A stretch of DNA of 52,064 nt from Bdellovibrionales bacterium RIFOXYD12_FULL_39_22 (GCA_001770205.1 MEQL01000015.1:1-52064), one strand, 5' to 3'; numbered from the stretch's first letter, positions 1 through 33,000 are shown. Made by a program: the numbers.

Positions 1-3000
1 AGCGGCGAAGTTAGTGCCAGGGTAACTTGGTGTGAGAATAGCACGATGCACCTTCAAAAAAAGGCCATATGAAAATATGGCCTTTTTTTTTGCTGAAATT
101 CTTCGTAAGCACATAAGTACAAAACGTAATTAGGCCATCGATAGTTTGCTGTCAAAAATACAGCTTTAACGTTCTAGTTTTAATGTTTATAATAAATTAG
201 CATAATTAATTTGCAAAATTGGCCAGTAGAATTAATCGTATCGTATTTCAAATTACGGAGTTTTATAGATATGAGATTGCACGGGAAAATAGGCACTAGA
301 GTTTTGAAAAAATTTGAAGGTTTTTCTTTTGTTGAAATCATGGTTGCCGTCGGACTTACTGGAATGATCTCATTAGGAACAGTTAAAATTATTGACATGA
401 TGAACAGAGGGCAAAAGAATTTAACTCAGCATGTGACAACAAATAGGCTTGATTTTGAAATTATGATGACATTGATGGATAAATCAGGCTGTGAATTGAC
501 AATGAATGGAATAACGCCACCCACGGTAACTGGCGACTCGTTAACCCTTGCCGATCACGGAATAATTGCTCGTGGTGATAGATTAATTACAACTACAGAT
601 TCTGCATTGCCACAAAATGTTCATGATTTTGCACAAGGTGGGATAATGATTCACGAGAGTACCTCTATCCTCAAGGACAGGGATTCAGACTCGTTAGCGC
701 CGGGAGATGGAATTCCAAATCACTACATGTTGAATTTGATGTTTAGAAAAAGGGCCTCGTCAGTTGGCGCAGACTCGATCCCTGTAAAAATCCCGCTATG
801 GGTAATTCAGGATAATGGTGTAGATGGAACAATAACTACATGTTTTACACAGGAAGATGCCTATGTACAGGCGGCATGCGCTTCGCTTTTGGGAACATTA
901 GAATACGGTTATTGCAAGCGATTGCAAATTTTTCAAAGTGGTGTACCTGTTCCGGCAATACCACCTGCTGACGATAATTATTCTATGAGCTTGTTTGGAA
1001 ATTTTTTTGTTAATGGAGAAGGTTCTGGGGCGGGCATAATTTTTCAGGATACTTTGGATGATACTGAGATTGATATAAGAGGTGGGGATTTTTCCGATAA
1101 TAAAATTGCAATGGCCTCAGATCGTATCGCAGGGCAGTTAGTACTTAATGCCGACAATAGTTTTGATTCCACAAAGGGTTATGCAAAATTATTCCTTCTC
1201 GGGAATGAAAGTGTTGAGCTTAGAGCACCTATTTATCATTTTAAATCATTAGATGGGGGGAATACATTTTTAACTGTTACTGATGGCCCTGCCGTTTTTA
1301 ACTATGGACTTACAATAGCTGCTGGTCAATCTATTGGTTTTGCCTCCGATAAATCACAAAAAAAAGAAATTAGTCCTTTGGTCAAAGTTTTAGAAAAAAT
1401 TGAAAAAATTAGCGGGGTAAGTTTTCGCTGGAAAGACTCAAATCAAAAGGATATTGGGGTGATTGCACAAGATATTGAAAAAGTATTTCCTGAATTAGTT
1501 GCCACAAATGGTGAAGATGGAAAACTTATGGTAAAATATCCTCAGCTATCTGCAGTCTCTATTCAGGCCATAAAAGAGCTTCATAAAGAAAATAGATATC
1601 TTCTACAAGAAGTTCAAAGCTTAAAAAAATATCTTTGTGATCGAGATGGGAAGTTTTGCAAGTAGAGTTTGTTAAGTGAATAGATTCCAGCCAATGTCTG
1701 GCCCCAAATATTGAAGAGTAAAATGTTTGGTTTCATCGAGGTTGATCTCTTTTTCAACGATAATGTCGCGAACAGTTCCCATAACTTTTTGACCATTTGA
1801 TAAGATGATGGGGCCATTTCGCCATTTTGTCTTTAGCACATAAAAATGAATTACGGTGGTGATTGCTTCTGGATTAGCAGGCAAAATTATCTTTGCATCA
1901 CCTACAAGGGTATGAGTGGCCGTTTCATTATCTGTAATTTTAATCTCTTTTTTTGCAAATAAATATAACGGGGCATCTTTAATCTTTTGCCCGATAGTCG
2001 CTTTGCCTGCAATTGCGGCCGCAAAAAGAGTCGTCAAAAAACTTCTTCGCTCCATAAAGTTCCCGTTGAAATTAAATCGGATATCAATTACCCTACTAGA
2101 GTATTTGTTTGGTTTTTATCTGTCAAAATTTACCTGGAGCTATTTATGGCGTACTACTTAACAACGGCAAATATCCATGTTCCTCCAGCGACTTCAACAG
2201 TGGCCACAGCTGGAACAGGAAATGGTTTAGCGGTAACGGATGGAACTAATGTACCCGCGGGTAATTTTTCAGCAAACAAGGTTTTCAATGCTGTTTGGAA
2301 TGATGTTGCAGATTTTCAATTGTTGAATGACAAATTTATTCCAGGAAAGTGCTATGTCGATCACATAGAAGGTGCACGAATTGCATCACAGCGCTGTCAA
2401 ATGGGGGTAATTGGAATTGCCTCGGATACCTTTGGATATGGTGTCGGTTCAGGGGCAAATGAGAGTGAAGTTCCTATTGCGATTGCCGGTTGGGTTCTTG
2501 CTTTTGTAGATCAAGAATACCCATGTGGAACACCACTGACATGTAATGAGAACGGAGAATTGACAGAGATGTCGTTGGAAGAGAAAAGGGATTATCCAGA
2601 AAGAATAGTCGGTATATATAAAAAACCAGAACGCAATAAAGAGTTTGGGCCAAATAAGAATAAAATCCTGGTAAATGGGCGACACTGGGTTAAGGTCAAA
2701 TAATTAGTCTCTTTTAAAAATCAGTCGGGCCACTTCACAATAGTTAAATCCAAATATTTTGCCATCAGATTCGTTGGTAATTTTTATTCCAGATAAACTA
2801 CATGGATGCGTGTCATCTTCTTTTATCTCACCTATATATCTTCGACACAGCTTCACTTTTGTTTCAATATACTTAGAAATATCAAATCCAACATTGAAAT
2901 GATGTTCGATAAATGACCAATCGGAACTACCTGGTATTTTATATTGATAAAACTCTCGAACAGAACACTTTCTAATTGGGCGACAGGTTAAACGGAGACT

Positions 3001-30000: not shown

Positions 30001-33000
30001 TTATGAAAGAAATTGTGGCAGTAGTTGGTTTTAGTATTTATGCTTTTATCTTTAGTTACATCGCCCTGTTTTGCATTAACTGGTTTACACCAGTTCGAAC
30101 AACTGAAAAAGAAGAAATTGATGGATTGGATTCTACACTACATGGAGAAGAAGCCTATATATAATCACACACTCAGGGAATCTGATATGAGGAAGATTTT
30201 AGATATTAAAAACTATTCCCTACTAGGCCATGGCAATGAGCGATCGCATTAGATAAGCAGTATCCCAGTATGTTGCACATAATTTTTTAGGTTATGAATA
30301 TCGATTGCTCAGCAATCATCATGCTAGACGTTAGAAAAATTAAAACAGATCATGTTGCAGACTTGAATAAACTTCTGTCTAGGAGCGACTGGGTCGTGAG
30401 ACATTTTCAAATCAATTTCGATTGTTGATTGTGACCATTTTCTAGATCATACTTTAAAACCAAGTGTCCACTTAGGGGTTGATATATGTAAAAATACGTG
30501 TGGGACGTTACCTTCCCAAGAAAGCATTTGACATAAAATCATCGTCGGTGAGAGTGTAGCCGGCAAGTCCGTTTTCTAAAATGTCGGTATAGCGCAAATA
30601 TACACTATCATCATAATTCCCATTATAATCAATAATAATATTTTTATTGTAAAAAAAGCATTCGGGAATAAGTCGGTTGTTTGAGTCCAGAATGCCGCAA
30701 TGATAATAATATAATGTATCGAAACTCTGAAAAAATAACGTATATGATCGATCGAATAATTTACGAAATGATTTTTTACTTTGAAGCGAGATTGGAAGAA
30801 CAATATCTAGCTTGCTATTTAGGCACGAGATAAAGACTTGTGGTAATGATGTTTCAAATTTCTTATAAATATCAAAATAAAACTTTAACCTACATTTATG
30901 GCCGTAGTTCTGATAGTTATAATAACCAAAATATGAGATTTCTTTATCTTTAGATTGTATTTTTTGATAACCCTTGTTGGCGTAGCAAATAATATCATTT
31001 TTTATAAAAATATATGACTGGCGCAATGTGTTCACATCAAGGATTAATGTCTTTATATTTTTTAATTTTGCCAGATCCCTTATGTTGTTTACTGGTAAAA
31101 TATCATTTAATATTTTACAATTAAAATTGTATCTACTCACAAAAACGTCTTTAATCATATCAAGATCCTGAGCGGTGATCTTATAAATATTAAATACAAC
31201 GCTGGGGTCTCGTTCTTTTAAGAAAACAAAGTACTCGAAGCAGTAAAAAAGAGTACCGTTAATTTTTTTATGTTCTTGAAATGCGTATAAAATATTTTTC
31301 ATTTTTCTTAATAAATGTTGTTAATATTCTAAAAAATCACGAATAATAGGATCGTCACATGTCAAAATATAATCACCCAGTCCATTTTGTCTAATGTCAT
31401 TATATCGGAAGTTGAGGCTATCTTGAATTGATTCATTATATTTTATGAAAATATTTTTTTTATAGTAAAAACATTCAGGAATGATTCTATTGTTTAAATC
31501 AAAAACTGTTTGAAAATAATAAATGGTATCAAAGAGGGAAAAGAAATTATCATAATGGCCAGTTTTTCTTTTTCTGATTTGCCTCATATTTTTAAGCTCA
31601 TCCGGCAAATCAATTTTACATGATTCATCCTTGCAATTGATAAACAGTCCATGCTGGGGATTTTCAATTTTTCTATAAATATCAAAATAGAATTTAAGTT
31701 TTGTTTTGATATCAAAAGGCTGATATTCATAATATCCATAGTAGGTAATATTTTTATGTCTAGAGCGAACCATTTGGTGATTTGTGTTGGAGTAACATTG
31801 GATGTCGTTTTTTATAAAAGAATATGTTTTTTTGAACGTATTGACGTCAAACATGAGTGAAAGGCCATAGTTTTGCTTGTCCAATGCCCCAATGTCGTTT
31901 ATCGATATAATATCATCTAAATATTCAGTATTAAATACATACCTATCTAGGAAAACATTTTTTACAAATTTTAAATCAGCTTCAGAAATATTATAAATAG
32001 TAAAAACAGTATTCTTGTCTCTTTCTTTTAAAAAAACGTAATATTCAAAACAATAAAAAAGAATTCCGTTGACCTTATTGTGAATTTGAAAGTGATAAAG
32101 TATGTTTTTCATTGTTAAAAATGTACCTTGTAGATTCGTTTTTGCTAAACGTGCAAGGAGCTTGATGGCCAATACCTCAAGCATATTTGCCTGATATTAT
32201 ATATAAGCATCAGGCATAAACTCTGGCAAGCTATTGAGAGGTTTATAACTTCTTGGAATATGCAAAAAAAATAATCTGCTTTAGCATGGCCGCAAGCCCG
32301 TTGCTGCGGTTTTGAGAGAGATGTTCTTTTATTCCAATTTTATCAATGAAATCAGTCTTGGTATTTAGAATTTCTGACGGAGAGCTTTCAGAATAAATTT
32401 TTATTAAGAGGGCCGCGATTCCTTTGGTGATAGCAGCATCACTATCTCCAGCAAGAATTATTTTATCTTGGGAAGGTGATATGGTAGCATGAAGCCACAC
32501 TTGGGATTGACAGCCACGAATTAGATTGTCATCTGTTTTTAGAGAGACTTCCATCGGGGGAAGGTTTTTTCCATAAGTAATGAGAAGGCGATAGCGATCT
32601 TCAATATTTTCGAGAGTGCTAAATTCGCTAATTGCATCATTAATTCGATTTTGTAGTGTTGTCATAAAAAATCCTTAACTTTTCTAATGCCATCCGCAAG
32701 ACGATCAATATCAGAATTAGTGTTATATATTGTAAATGAGGCCCGCGCTATAGAGGTTAAATTTAAACATTTCATTAGTTGCTGAGCACAGTGATTGCCA
32801 GTACGAATGGCGATGCCTTGCATGTCTAGGATGCTGCCAAGGTCATATGAGTGTACATTTTCAAGAGTAAAAGATACTACTCCAGAACGCTTGGCCGGAT
32901 TGCCAATAATTTTAAGGCCAGAAATTGGTGAGAGCTTTGTGATAGTATATTTAAGAAGATCTTCATCGTACTTCGAAATTTGTTTTTGGCCAATGGCCTT

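What a model noticed while it worked through the whole genome (the two positions that open the first line are those of the whole stretch)
211..32184. New cysteine-rich fibre-end protein family embedded in a conserved multi-radical-SAM cassette
g0653 (C15:9386-9838, 150 aa) belongs to an unnamed family defined by a C-terminal DC[IV]CN[ST]DCxCNxVCxCHNxCGC-NY module. In many members a self-cleaving Peptidase_S74 chaperone follows directly, so the module is the mature end of fibre-type proteins. The gene is flanked by a conserved cassette: two PapB-like radical SAM/SPASM genes, a 200-aa and a 260-aa unknown, a weakly GT-B-like protein and more radical SAM genes. The cassette is found in Halobacteriovorax-family chromosomes and on contigs classed as viral. 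I propose that it modifies the fibre tip after translation.
Evidence so far: - No Pfam or NCBIfam hit. - The profile search gave 188 representatives at E<=1e-3 and 74 at <=1e-10. - Six positions of the module are invariant in 38 rows. - 91 of 150 representatives have the strict motif; 62 of 150 continue with SDxx[LVI]K. - 7 of 7 long-tailed members have PF13884 starting right after NY. - Same gene order in 4 of 4 relatives' 20-kb loci. - SPASM genes upstream in 25 and 20 of 28 metagenome loci and in 16 of 16 IMG/VR loci. - The g0663 model hits almost only GT-B enzymes. - PHROG families for cassette proteins. - Homologues in 6 of 100 other genomes of the order.
(Added by a program. Inside this text positions count along the whole contig: contig position 1 is position 1 of the stretch shown here. 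"Call 12" and the like, gene names such as g00115 and contig names such as C1 are that model's own, and its searches are not shown. The text may have been shortened before it was handed on; [...] marks where a part breaks off. The agent that wrote the report below was given it as the finding of a first reader that could run no searches.)

Follow-up and report, generated by a model that had tools for sequence, protein, structure and literature searches.

The report
Cysteine-rich phage fibre protein with radical-SAM partners
A small cysteine-rich protein of a predatory bacterium belongs to a family from T4-like phages that is nearly always encoded beside radical-SAM enzymes of the kind that staple cysteines into permanent cross-links, so these enzymes may harden a virus fibre protein.

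Summary
Window 9386-9838 (minus) encodes a 150-aa protein ending in four Cys-x-Cys pairs at six-residue spacing. A profile search found 167 cluster representatives at E<=1e-3.

In relatives a self-cleaving Peptidase_S74 chaperone starts right after the terminal Tyr. Other members, including this one, stop at or just past that Tyr.

The gene sits in a tight D-E-F-G-H unit: SPASM radical SAM, small acidic helical protein, SPASM radical SAM, Cys protein, 200-aa unknown. F lies directly upstream of G in 17 of 17 IMG/VR loci and 47 of 48 judgeable metagenome loci.

New here:
- The viral contigs are real T4-like myophages, and the cassette follows their tail-fibre genes.
- Named Peredibacter and Halobacteriovorax genomes carry the full cassette.
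- Long members share the N-terminal domain as well as the Cys module.
- Gene K (g0659) is not truncated.
- Campylobacter phage CP220, known for 11 unexplained radical SAM genes, has homologues of D, F, H, J and K and a CxC-repeat protein.

Best reading (about 0.45): D and F install thioether cross-links on the Cys module. Other enzymes tailor it further. The chemistry is untested. The closest precedent is CrpC/CrpA (2026). I rate it a new variant of a known kind.

The parts
9386..9838 (-). G: 150-aa Cys-rich protein (g0653). N-terminal MSCSGSHC segment, helical middle, C-terminal module of four CxC pairs at period 6 ending N-Y-G.
   Evidence: Monomer model: pLDDT about 80 for helices 58-76 and 109-125, about 40 for the module.
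9851..11017 (-). F: radical SAM/SPASM enzyme, 388 aa, 12 nt upstream of G. CDLNCAYC cluster motif near residue 30, so no room for an N-terminal RRE domain.
   Evidence: Pfam PF04055, Fer4_12 and a weak SPASM hit. Sequence. The G015 orthologue's best NCBIfam match is PapB at 103 bits against a cut-off of 340, and its SPASM domain TIGR04085 scores 29.7 against 27. Directly upstream of G in 17/17 and 47/48 loci.
10980..11234 (-). E: 84-aa acidic, probably all-helical protein that overlaps the end of D and the start of F.
   Evidence: BLAST-recognisable in 10 of 17 viral loci and in many metagenome loci. No PHROG family.
11224..12234 (-). D: radical SAM/SPASM enzyme, 336 aa, with CNLSCSYC and CX2CX5CX3C motifs.
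   Evidence: The G015 orthologue matches PapB at 102 bits against 340. Present in 17/17 viral loci.
8742..9344 (-). H: 200-aa unknown (phrog_25260), 41 nt downstream of G. Small N-terminal beta/alpha domain followed by long helices.
   Evidence: Model pLDDT 85.5. No fold match beyond generic helix bundles. Within two ORFs of G in 50 of 52 judgeable metagenome loci.
14728..15360 (-). Second copy of H, 210 aa.
13714..14718 (-). K: radical SAM enzyme (phrog_27238). Full length, probably starting at CTG 14718.
   Evidence: Open frame of 336 codons. One tblastn piece over residues 1-339 at 56% identity. The relative's TTG start aligns with CTG here. 48% identical to a Campylobacter phage CP220 protein.
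17134..18042 (+).
   Evidence: 60-63% identical to G015 and G013. Homologue in CP220. No Pfam or PDB sequence match. Fold not re-tested.
30508..32184 (-). I: two tandem copies (264 and 287 aa) of the 246-aa cassette protein, displaced about 20 kb from the core. GT-B-like as a lead only.
   Evidence: Atlas: nearest clusters are viral, TM 0.54-0.66 to glycosyltransferase models, below the tool's naming bar. GC 0.30.
20886..21914 (-). L: radical SAM/SPASM enzyme (phrog_21308). One copy here against three tandem copies in relatives.
12309..13127 (-). Further radical SAM/SPASM gene.
6010..7858 (+). Two adjacent radical SAM genes of phrog_13987 type (6010-6972 and 6965-7858).
18066..19055 (-). Radical SAM gene of phrog_13987 type.
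22018..22959 (+). Radical SAM gene of phrog_13987 type.
13109..13717 (-). Polysaccharide deacetylase. The same kind of gene sits inside the cassette of viral locus L016 and near K in CP220.
2704..6044 (.). Sugar-handling genes interleaved with the cassette: PIG-L deacetylase (2704-3345), split transketolase (3324-4485), an unknown (4631-5398) and a GT2 (5436-6044).
15499..17042 (.). NAD-dependent sugar epimerase/dehydratase (15499-16437, +) and a partial second one (16449-17042, -).
1672..2703 (.). B (127 aa, minus) and C (238-aa ORF, plus): unknowns that flank the cassette in G013, G015 and two Halobacteriovorax genomes.
   Evidence: No PHROG or Pfam family.
211..1665 (+). 484-aa protein with a type-IV-pilin-like N-terminus and a fibre-type C-terminus with Peptidase_S74. 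No Cys module.

Best explanation
**What G is.** G is a structural, fibre-type protein family that arose in T4-like myophages. It was taken up, with its whole maturation cassette, by a few predatory Bacteriovoracales: Halobacteriovorax, Peredibacter and this genome. It has three parts:
- a conserved N-terminal Cys/His segment, which is leader-like and probably the recognition handle;
- a variable middle, from about 100 to about 600 residues, which is probably the functional or binding part;
- a conserved C-terminal module of CxC pairs spaced six residues apart.

Where a Peptidase_S74 chaperone follows, it cuts itself off at the Ser after the terminal Tyr. The module is then the free C-terminal end.

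**Proposed mechanism (inferred).** In the reducing cytoplasm, where disulfides cannot form, the two co-transcribed SPASM radical SAM enzymes D and F abstract hydrogen from acceptor residues in the module. The recurrent C-x-x-D and C-x-x-N spacings point to these acceptors. The enzymes then join Cys sulfur to carbon, giving ranthionine- or sactionine-type thioethers that lock the end of the protein covalently.

The enzymes lack an RRE domain. The small acidic protein E and the 200-aa protein H, which is always next to G, most likely hold or present the substrate.

The remaining enzymes add further tailoring, most likely a modified sugar. These are K, the L paralogues, the phrog_13987-type radical SAMs, the GT-B-like I and perhaps J, and the recurrent deacetylases and epimerases.

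**Shown:** family, architecture, S74 junction, gene linkage, phage origin.

**Inferred:** substrate relation, thioether chemistry, roles of E and H, glycan.
For: **Linkage**
- F lies directly upstream of G in 17/17 IMG/VR loci and in 47/48 metagenome loci with at least 900 nt upstream.
- The same holds in G000, G013, G015, Peredibacter and two Halobacteriovorax genomes.
- H lies within two ORFs downstream in 50/52 loci.
- Members with G of 361-716 aa keep H downstream in 5 of 5 loci (L038-L042) and F upstream in the 3 where G is not the first ORF.
- D-E-F-G-H are packed with 12-41 nt gaps or overlaps on one strand.

**Enzyme type**
- The G015 orthologues of D and F match peptide-maturase SPASM families over their full length. 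The best is PapB, and QhpD-type, SCIFF and TIGR04463 'vs C-rich' models also hit.
- Both have CX3CX2C and SPASM Cys motifs.

**Substrate-like features**
- In the module, Cys, Asn4, Asp6, Asn10, Asp/Asn18 and Tyr23 are conserved across 134 representatives.
- C3-x-x-D6 and C15-x-x-D/N18 fit the C-x-x-Q/D pattern that Dieter et al. 2026 relate to thioether formation. They also fit the C-Xn-D scope of PapB, n = 0-6 (abstract).
- The N-terminus is conserved like a leader.
- The module alone has no confident monomer fold, pLDDT about 40.

**Precedent**
- CrpC installs ranthionine links on the 28.8-kDa Cys-rich protein CrpA.

**Structural-protein context**
- S74 follows in 30/49 scanned members. The Ser and the Lys five residues later are conserved.
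- The S74 part matches only tail fibre and tail spike genes of cultured phages.
- The cassette follows tail-fibre genes in L006, L008, L010 and L016.
- The contigs carry a T4 gp23-type capsid protein (E about 1e-100) and large terminase.

**Glycan lead**
- I is GT-B-like.
- Deacetylase, epimerase and sugar-dehydrogenase-like genes recur with cassette genes in G000, in marine phage loci and in CP220.
Against: - No chemistry has been measured.
- The PapB, QhpD and TIGR04463 scores are far below the family cut-offs, so the reaction type cannot be read from the enzyme family.
- Nothing shows that G is trimeric or part of a virion. No solved or predicted structure resembles it.
- The window's own G, like the other predator copies, has no S74 domain and no signal peptide. 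A 'fibre' role in the bacterium is therefore unsupported.
- A subfamily lacks one of the eight Cys: position 9 is Cys in only 98 of 134.
- In CP220 the homologous enzymes are scattered among DNA-metabolism genes. That fits a role not tied to one protein.
- CxC repeats are also classic metal-binding motifs.
- E and H have no recognisable fold or family.
- Many of the 60 metagenome loci are the same or closely related phages, some identical to IMG/VR contigs. The linkage counts overstate independent events.
Confidence: 0.45

Rival explanations
1. The Cys module is a metal-binding or, after lysis, disulfide-bonded structural knot that needs no enzymes. T4 fibre tips bind metal through His-x-His repeats in a comparable way. 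The radical SAM cassette next to it makes something else, such as an unusual sugar or nucleotide derivative.
For: - CxC repeats at a fixed period suit layered metal sites. That this resembles the T4 gp37/gp12 arrangement is recalled knowledge, not a tool result.
- Sugar-handling genes recur with the cassette.
- CP220 has the K and J homologues far from its F-like and CxC-repeat genes.
Against: - The F-G-H adjacency is nearly invariant across phages and bacteria.
- D and F belong to the peptide/protein-maturase branch of SPASM enzymes, not to sugar- or nucleotide-acting families.
- Besides G, the cassette has no other non-enzyme protein with conserved Cys.
Confidence: 0.2
2. G is a RiPP precursor. 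The N-terminal 100-170 residues are a large leader and the 23-residue module is the core. The core is released as a small modified peptide, a toxin or signal, and is not part of a fibre.
For: - The gene-cluster logic is RiPP-like, with two SPASM maturases and a Cys-rich C-terminal core.
- The N-terminus is conserved.
- The predator copies lack S74.
Against: - The core is the most conserved part and the 'leader' middle is the most variable, up to 700 aa. This is the reverse of RiPP precursors.
- No protease or exporter family was found among the cassette genes.
- The S74 chaperone and the position behind tail-fibre genes of T4-like phages point to a structural protein.
Confidence: 0.12
3. The cassette is chiefly a nucleotide-sugar or DNA-hypermodification pathway of large phages. 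G, E and H are accessory or scaffold proteins for that pathway, for example a carrier of an iron-sulfur or other cofactor.
For: - There are 9 or more radical SAM genes per cassette.
- K resembles MoaA, HxsC and NirJ-type enzymes.
- GT-B-like proteins recall T4 DNA glucosyltransferases. This is recalled knowledge.
- In CP220 the homologues lie among replication and nucleotide genes.
- A SUF operon adjoins the island in G000.
Against: - The cassette is kept whole in bacterial chromosomes without phage replication genes. In G015 it lies next to aroC and aroB/aroA. It is also whole in Peredibacter.
- G carries S74 and variable inserts like receptor-binding proteins.
- The dG replacement of CP220 is attributed to 7-deazaguanine genes, not to these (recalled, not checked here).
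Confidence: 0.13

Closest known systems
CrpC/CrpA of Methanococcus voltae (Dieter et al. 2026, PMC13692751; I read the abstract and sections 8 and 14)
   Same: - A SPASM radical SAM enzyme is encoded next to a Cys-rich protein of protein size, 28.8 kDa.
- That protein has a conserved N-terminal leader-like part, C-terminal repeated Cys motifs and C-x-x-Q/D spacing.
- The enzyme installs ranthionine thioethers on a protein, not a peptide.
- A second adjacent protein may act as a helper.
   Different: - CrpC belongs to TIGR04463 and has an RRE domain. F scores 40 bits against a cut-off of 525 and has no room for an RRE.
- The CrpA repeat is 17 residues repeated 10 times. Here it is a 6-residue CxC unit repeated 4 times.
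- The Crp cluster has three genes. Here there are two SPASM enzymes plus 5-8 more radical SAM genes and GT-B-like proteins.
- The setting is archaeal and metal-related, against phage tail-fibre regions and S74 chaperones here.
PapB/PapA (freyrasin) ranthipeptide system, NCBIfam NF047865 (Eastman et al. 2022, PMC9413430; abstract only)
   Same: - PapB is the best-scoring named family for both D and F over their full length.
- It makes Cys-to-Asp/Glu thioethers in repeated C-Xn-D motifs and tolerates n = 0-6.
   Different: - Scores are 102-103 bits against a cut-off of 340.
- PapA is a short secreted-peptide precursor with six CX3D motifs.
- G is a 150-830 aa protein whose core is conserved and whose middle varies.
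QhpD/QhpC of quinohemoprotein amine dehydrogenase, TIGR03906 (recalled knowledge for the biology)
   Same: A SPASM radical SAM enzyme makes intraprotein Cys-Asp/Glu thioethers in a small structural subunit that stays part of a protein complex.
   Different: - D and F score only 54-65 bits against a cut-off of 453.
- There is no quinone cofactor, dehydrogenase subunit or leader protease here.
Peptidase_S74 intramolecular chaperone of endosialidase and tail fibres (PF13884)
   Same: - 30 of 49 scanned family members carry it directly after the module.
- The Ser and the Lys five residues later are kept.
- The matching proteins of cultured phages are tail fibres and tail spikes.
   Different: - No described S74 protein has this Cys module before the cleavage site. 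tblastn against 50,697 phage records matched only the S74 part.
- The window's own protein has no S74.
- 37 of 150 members have only a 12-14 residue stub of it.
Radical SAM gene set of Campylobacter Firehammervirus phages CP220 and CPt10 (Timms et al. 2010, PMC2853527; passages)
   Same: - These T4-related phages have 11-12 radical SAM genes of unknown role.
- CP220 has homologues of D, F, H, J and K and of the phages' sugar-dehydrogenase-like gene.
- It also has a 534-aa protein with seven C-T-C-D-C-N-Y heptads and six more CxC motifs, four genes from the F homologue.
   Different: - The genes are dispersed, not in one cassette.
- The CxC protein is linked to the G family only weakly: E 1.4e-4 to the middle region and hhalign probability 26%.
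- It has a heptad rather than a hexad repeat and no S74.
Tandem dioxygenase arrays of T4-like cyanophages such as Syn9 (Iyer et al. 2010, PMC2938197; passages)
   Same: - Large tandem arrays of oxidative tailoring enzymes occur in marine T4-like phages.
- The same paper proposes that co-encoded structural proteins with collagen-like or tail-collar domains are enzyme substrates.
   Different: - The enzymes there are oxygen-dependent 2OG/Fe dioxygenases, not radical SAM enzymes.
- No Cys-rich substrate is involved.
- The authors favoured secondary metabolites for the phage arrays.

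Membership tests
PapB family radical SAM/SPASM ranthipeptide maturase (NF047865) | Score at or above the curated cut-off of 340 bits | tested here: not met
   The G015 orthologues of D and F score 102.2 and 103.1 bits. The window's own D and F were not scanned against NCBIfam. 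They are 46% and 50% identical to those orthologues.
PapB family radical SAM/SPASM ranthipeptide maturase (NF047865) | CX3CX2C radical SAM cluster motif plus a SPASM domain with auxiliary-cluster cysteines | tested here: met
   The motifs are visible in D and F. PF04055 hits both. TIGR04085 SPASM scores 29.7 against 27 for the G015 F orthologue. Pfam SPASM for the window's F is below cut-off at 18 against 21.5.
PapB family radical SAM/SPASM ranthipeptide maturase (NF047865) | Forms Cys-S to Asp/Glu side-chain carbon thioethers in C-Xn-D motifs | not testable with these tools
   Only the motif is present: C-x-x-D at module positions 3-6, and 15-18 with D or N.
TIGR04463 radical SAM/SPASM maturase of large Cys-rich proteins (CrpC type) | Score at or above the cut-off of 525 bits | tested here: not met
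   40.3 bits for the G015 F orthologue.
TIGR04463 radical SAM/SPASM maturase of large Cys-rich proteins (CrpC type) | N-terminal RRE domain before the radical SAM domain | tested here: not met
   The cluster motif begins near residue 30 in F and residue 11 in D. The PF04055 match starts at residues 22 and 8. That leaves no room for a domain of about 90 aa.
TIGR04463 radical SAM/SPASM maturase of large Cys-rich proteins (CrpC type) | Encoded next to a Cys-rich protein with repeated C-terminal Cys motifs | tested here: met
Peptidase_S74 (PF13884) fibre/spike proteins | S74 domain with a Ser nucleophile and a Lys five residues later at the C-terminus | tested here: not met
   The window's G stops three residues after the last Cys (N-Y-G) and has no S74. 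Among relatives it is met in 30 of 49 scanned. Ser24 and Lys29 are conserved where a tail exists.
Phage tail fibre / receptor-binding protein | Homotrimeric elongated fold | tested here: inconclusive
   The monomer model is low in confidence outside two helices. No structural match was found.
Phage tail fibre / receptor-binding protein | Encoded in the tail or fibre module of a phage and present in virions | tested here: inconclusive
   G lies behind tail-fibre genes in L006, L008, L010 and L016, in contigs with T4-type capsid and terminase genes. Presence in virions was not testable. The IBB_35 virion protein table is an old .doc file that I did not open.
RiPP precursor peptide | Conserved leader, variable core, and a leader protease and/or exporter in the cluster | tested here: not met
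   The core is the most conserved part and the middle is variable. No protease or transporter family occurs in the cassette.
   I: the Atlas model (pTM 0.56) aligns at TM 0.54-0.66 to glycosyltransferase clusters, below the tool's bar for naming a family. J: no Pfam or PDB sequence match, and its fold was not re-predicted.

The most novel reading that the evidence does not exclude
T4-like phages and the predatory bacteria that borrowed the cassette make a structural or adhesive protein whose end is covalently stapled by two SPASM radical SAM enzymes. An array of up to eight more radical SAM enzymes and glycosyltransferase-like proteins then decorates it. This would be the first RiPP-style maturation line dedicated to a virion or cell-surface fibre. 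It would also explain the 11-12 radical SAM genes of Campylobacter Firehammervirus phages, unexplained in the 2010 description of those genomes.
Probability: 0.3. Interest if true: 0.85.

Novelty: new variant of a known kind. Interest (0 to 1): 0.72.

Why it matters
**If true.** Phage particles are built in the reducing cytoplasm, where disulfides cannot stabilise them. Enzyme-made thioethers would be a new way for a virus to harden an exposed part. It would extend radical SAM 'peptide' chemistry to virion or surface proteins.

**Size of the family.** The family is large: 167 cluster representatives, almost all from metagenomes. It has no name and no cultured model.

**Route to experiments.** The link to Campylobacter phages CP220 and CPt10 offers cultured phages for testing. 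It also gives a testable hypothesis for their many radical SAM genes.

**Predators.** The patchy presence in Halobacteriovorax and Peredibacter, together with a pilin-fibre chimera next door in this genome, raises a question. Do predatory bacteria reuse phage fibre technology for prey contact?

**Enzymology.** The cassette holds about ten uncharacterised radical SAM enzymes with a probable common substrate.

Tried and rejected
- **Word-index homology search** with the single protein found only itself. The full HMMER scan was needed.
- **Homotrimer prediction** of G (three copies, 40-row alignment) returned 'no answer', score 0.01 against a mark of 0.42. It counts neither for nor against a trimer.
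- **AlphaFold monomer of G**: pLDDT 63, module about 40. The BFVD search found nothing at E<=0.001.
- **Model of H**: good, pLDDT 85.5. Foldseek against the PDB gave no match at E<=0.001. VIA-align wide gave only generic helical bundles at Z of 10 or less. A Pfam scan of 25 H members at E<=5 gave nothing consistent. I considered an RRE-like reading of H's N-terminal beta/alpha domain but could not support it.
- **ESM Atlas for H**: no lead.
- **PDB sequence searches** with the G profile, with F and with the J profile found nothing.
- **Genome-contig scan with the G alignment**: 599 pattern matches, none confirmed by tblastn. The J alignment worked.
- **tblastn of two viral G proteins** against 50,697 phage records matched only the S74 part. 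BLAST's low-complexity filter may hide the module, so absence from cultured phages is not proven.
- **IMG/VR scan with the long-member alignment** returned the same contigs as before.
- **Sequencing-run search**: no RNA holder is listed, so there is no information on expression.
- **Literature searches** for a described link between radical SAM enzymes and phage fibre proteins, or for Halobacteriovorax with radical SAM, found none. The library lacks most subscription journals.
- **Supplements not seen**: Supplemental Data set 1 of Dieter et al. 2026 lists other radical-SAM-associated Cys-rich proteins and might include this family. The IBB_35 virion protein table is an old .doc. I did not try to open either file.
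- **Prophage reading of the G015 locus**: rejected. It is flanked by aroC and aroB/aroA and has no phage hallmark in 20 kb.

Full report
**1. What is in the window**

The ORF at 9386-9838 on the minus strand gives a 150-aa protein. It begins MSCSGSHC. It ends in four Cys-x-Cys pairs spaced six residues apart, followed by N-Y-G. It has no Pfam family.

It lies in a compact minus-strand unit:

| Gene | Coordinates | What it is |
|---|---|---|
| D | 11224-12234 | radical SAM/SPASM |
| E | 10980-11234 | 84-aa acidic protein, overlapping both neighbours |
| F | 9851-11017 | radical SAM/SPASM |
| G | 9386-9838 | the Cys protein, 12 nt after F |
| H | 8742-9344 | 200-aa unknown, 41 nt after G |

Around this unit lie further genes:
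- Between 6 and 23 kb, eight ORFs hit PF04055, and K makes nine radical SAM genes.
- Sugar-handling genes are interleaved: PIG-L deacetylase, a split transketolase, a GT2, a polysaccharide deacetylase and epimerases.
- GC is 0.32-0.35 over 4-24 kb and 0.30 at 30-32 kb, against 0.37-0.41 in most of the rest of the window. That fits foreign DNA.

**2. The family is real**

The word-index search found only the query. In 100 other genomes of the same family, two held a relative. Both relatives start MACSGxHC and end in the same module. Both show the order D, F, G, H, I, J, K, three L copies, M, N, O.

A profile of the three proteins against 1.84 billion representatives gave 167 proteins at E<=1e-3, 69 at <=1e-10 and 9 at <=1e-30.

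Among the best 150:
- 97 have four CxC pairs at period 6.
- 55 end at the Tyr or within two residues of it.
- 37 go on with a 12-14 residue SDxxLK stub.
- 28 have a long SDxxLK tail.
- 8 have another tail, and 22 lack a complete module.

PF13884 (Peptidase_S74) was found in 30 of the 49 members I scanned. These 49 were all the long-tailed or long members plus three stub members. The match starts at the residue after the Tyr in 25, one residue later in 2, and after a shortened module in 3.

A position count over 134 representatives gives C-x-C-N-S-D-C-x-C-N-x-V-C-x-C-(H/N)-x-(D/N)-C-G-C-N-Y. Where a tail exists, Ser follows and Lys comes five residues later. This is the Ser/Lys arrangement of the self-cleaving chaperone, which I state from recalled knowledge. 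The module is therefore the mature end in those members. The members without a tail stop at the same place.

**3. The family has two conserved ends, not only a C-terminal module**

Twelve long members (438-833 aa) align with the short ones at both ends. The shared N-terminal part holds a Cys/His segment and a G-D-I-I-x-A-x-D-I-N-x-L-I type motif. The shared C-terminal part is a helix followed by the module. A large variable insert lies between them. In the 40-row alignment of short members, M1, C31 and H35 are nearly invariant as well. This pattern of conserved ends and a variable middle is the reverse of a RiPP precursor. It looks more like a protein with a fixed anchoring or maturation site and a variable working part.

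**4. Gene linkage**

Seventeen IMG/VR loci encode a relative. BLAST labelling against the G015 cassette gave these counts out of 17 loci: D 17, F 17, G 17, H 15, I 15, J 16, K 16, E 10. The order D-E-F-G-H-I-J-K was constant.

Sixty metagenome loci were found with the long-member alignment:
- F is the ORF directly upstream of G in 47 of the 48 loci with at least 900 nt upstream.
- H is within two ORFs downstream in 50 of the 52 loci with more than 600 nt downstream.
- Five loci with long G (361-716 aa) keep H downstream. F lies upstream in the three where G is not the first ORF.

Several of these loci are the same phages as the IMG/VR contigs, and one is the window's own contig. The counts are therefore not independent events.

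**5. Who carries it**

PHROG scans covered 84 ORFs from five viral loci: all ORFs of L006 and L016 and the first 14, 11 and 14 of L007, L008 and L010. Tail-fibre families lie directly upstream of the cassette in L006, L008, L010 and L016. In L007 the upstream ORFs include a virion structural protein. The cassette proteins themselves fall into PHROG families 1802, 25260, 24441, 27238, 21308 and 13987.

Of five contigs tested, three have a large terminase. Three have a T4 gp23-type major capsid protein at E about 1e-100. A fourth had only a weak sub-threshold match.

A scan of species-representative genomes with the J alignment found the complete cassette in Peredibacter sp. HCB2-198, Halobacteriovorax sp. 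ZH2_bin.1 and Halobacteriovorax sp. CON-3. It found fragments on two small MAG contigs.

With the 40-row profile, 8 of 150 other genomes of the order have G, spread unevenly over four genera. In G015 the cassette is flanked by aroC and aroB/aroA and no phage gene. The picture is a phage cassette transferred into a few predatory bacteria.

**6. The G000 copy**

- The D-E-F-G-H core is intact.
- H is duplicated (14728-15360).
- I is duplicated and lies 20 kb away (30508-32184).
- J is on the other strand.
- There is one L copy.
- No N or O homologue was found at E<=1e-3, and M gave only weak matches inside L and D.

K is not truncated. The frame is open for 336 codons. It aligns in one piece to residues 1-339 of the G015 protein at 56% identity. 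The relative's TTG start corresponds to CTG here. The ORF lister simply began at the first ATG, GTG or TTG.

**7. The enzymes**

The G015 orthologues of D and F match peptide-maturase SPASM families along their whole length:

| Model | Score(s), bits | Cut-off, bits |
|---|---|---|
| PapB | 102 and 103 | 340 |
| QhpD type | 54-65 | 453 |
| SCIFF maturase | 46-62 | 425 |
| TIGR04463 'versus C-rich' | 40 | 525 |

They are therefore distant members of that branch and members of none of the named families. Both show CX3CX2C and SPASM cysteine motifs and start too early to hold an RRE domain.

K resembles MoaA, HxsC and NirJ-type enzymes. The L copies resemble a tungsten-cofactor maturase model. 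All of these score far below cut-off.

E is a small acidic helical protein without a family.

H folds with confidence into a small beta/alpha domain plus long helices. It matches nothing informative.

I is GT-B-like by the Atlas, as a lead only.

J has no sequence match. I could not re-fold it.

**8. How it most likely works**

Three facts are the signature of a maturase-substrate pair:
- the near-invariant F-G-H adjacency;
- the maturase-type SPASM enzymes;
- a conserved Cys module with C-x-x-D and C-x-x-D/N spacings, together with a conserved leader-like N-terminus.

Protein-size precedents exist. CrpC installs ranthionine links on the 28.8-kDa CrpA, whose repeats carry C-x-x-Q/D. PapB accepts C-Xn-D with n = 0-6. 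QhpD/QhpC is a further precedent from recalled knowledge.

I therefore propose that D and F make Cys-to-side-chain (or alpha-carbon) thioethers in the module. E and H would act as presenters, because the enzymes lack an RRE. The later enzymes would add further tailoring.

The recurrence of deacetylase, epimerase and sugar-dehydrogenase-like genes with cassette genes in three lineages points to a sugar. So does the GT-B-like I.

One rationale, which is inference only: virions assemble in a reducing cytoplasm where disulfides cannot form, and thioethers can.

Nothing here measures chemistry. The fold jobs did not show a trimer or a module structure. The predator copies have neither S74 nor a signal peptide, so their cellular role is open.

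**9. A cultured relative**

K is 48% identical to a protein of Campylobacter phages CP220, CPt10, CP21 and relatives. CP220 also has homologues of these cassette proteins:

| Cassette protein | CP220 homologue | Note |
|---|---|---|
| J | gp184 | |
| F | gp136 | 29% identity, E 7e-46 |
| D | gp023 | |
| H | gp015 | beside the baseplate hub gene |
| phage sugar-dehydrogenase-like gene | gp019 | |

Only about 70 kb of the 177-kb genome was examined locally. Whole-record searches were run for the G and H profiles and for one viral F protein.

Four genes from the F homologue lies gp140 (CPT_0180), next to a gene annotated as tail-fibre attachment catalyst. It has seven C-T-C-D-C-N-Y heptads and six further CxC motifs after a helix resembling the pre-module helix. 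Its statistical link to the G family is weak: E 1.4e-4 to the middle region and hhalign probability 26%. I treat it as a lead.

Timms et al. 2010 counted 11 and 12 radical SAM genes in CP220 and CPt10 and called this highly unusual. They noted the 21-bp repeat in CPT_0180 without explaining either.

**10. Novelty and verdict**

Four literature searches found no description of this family or of a radical SAM link to phage fibre proteins. The library is incomplete. I did not try to open the supplementary list of Dieter et al. 2026.

The principle, a SPASM enzyme stapling a neighbouring Cys-rich protein, is known. The following are new:
- the setting in T4-like phage fibre regions;
- the S74 junction;
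- the two enzymes with E and H;
- the array of up to ten radical SAM genes;
- the spread to predatory bacteria.

I rate it a new variant of a known kind. Interest is 0.72. Confidence in the proposed mechanism is 0.45.

Noticed in passing
window 211-1665 (+): A 484-aa protein joins a type-IV-pilin-like N-terminus (G-F-S-F-V-E followed by a hydrophobic helix) to a C-terminus that matches the ends of phage tail fibres, including Peptidase_S74 (residues 379-430). It has no Cys module. This is a pilin/phage-fibre chimera in a predatory bacterium, directly beside cassette neighbours B and C.
   Followed up: partly
window 10980-11234 (-): A small acidic helical ORF (E) lies between the two SPASM genes.
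   Followed up: partly
window 13714-14718 (-): Radical SAM gene K has CTG where the relative's TTG start lies. The gene is full length but is listed as a 168-aa ORF by start-codon rules.
   Followed up: yes
window 32243-37021 (-): A complete SUF iron-sulfur assembly operon (SufE, SufS, SufD, SufC, SufB) directly adjoins the displaced I paralogues of the radical-SAM-rich island. This may be coincidence.
   Followed up: no
window 4001-24000 and 30001-32000: GC dips to 0.32-0.35 and 0.30, against 0.37-0.41 in most of the rest of the window. The dips coincide with the cassette pieces.
   Followed up: no
L098:5933-7537 (Campylobacter phage CP220, gp140 / CPT_0180): A 534-aa protein has seven C-T-C-D-C-N-Y heptads encoded by that phage's only intragenic 21-bp repeat, plus six more CxC motifs. 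It lies four genes from an F-like radical SAM gene and next to a gp63-like tail-fibre attachment gene.
   Followed up: partly
L016:64-585 and L016:13697-20281: This viral locus also carries a tryptophan-halogenase-like gene, a nucleotide-sugar epimerase and three more radical SAM genes on the opposite strand, next to the cassette.
   Followed up: no
window 48914-49282 (+): A tmRNA gene with tag peptide ESYDYAMAA.
   Followed up: no
representatives P0010-P0047 and others: 37 of 150 family members end in a conserved 12-14 residue stub (S-D-x-R-L-K-x-x-I-x-Y-C). This is only the first segment of the S74 domain, often ending in Cys. It is too short to be a chaperone domain, and its role is unknown.
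   Followed up: no
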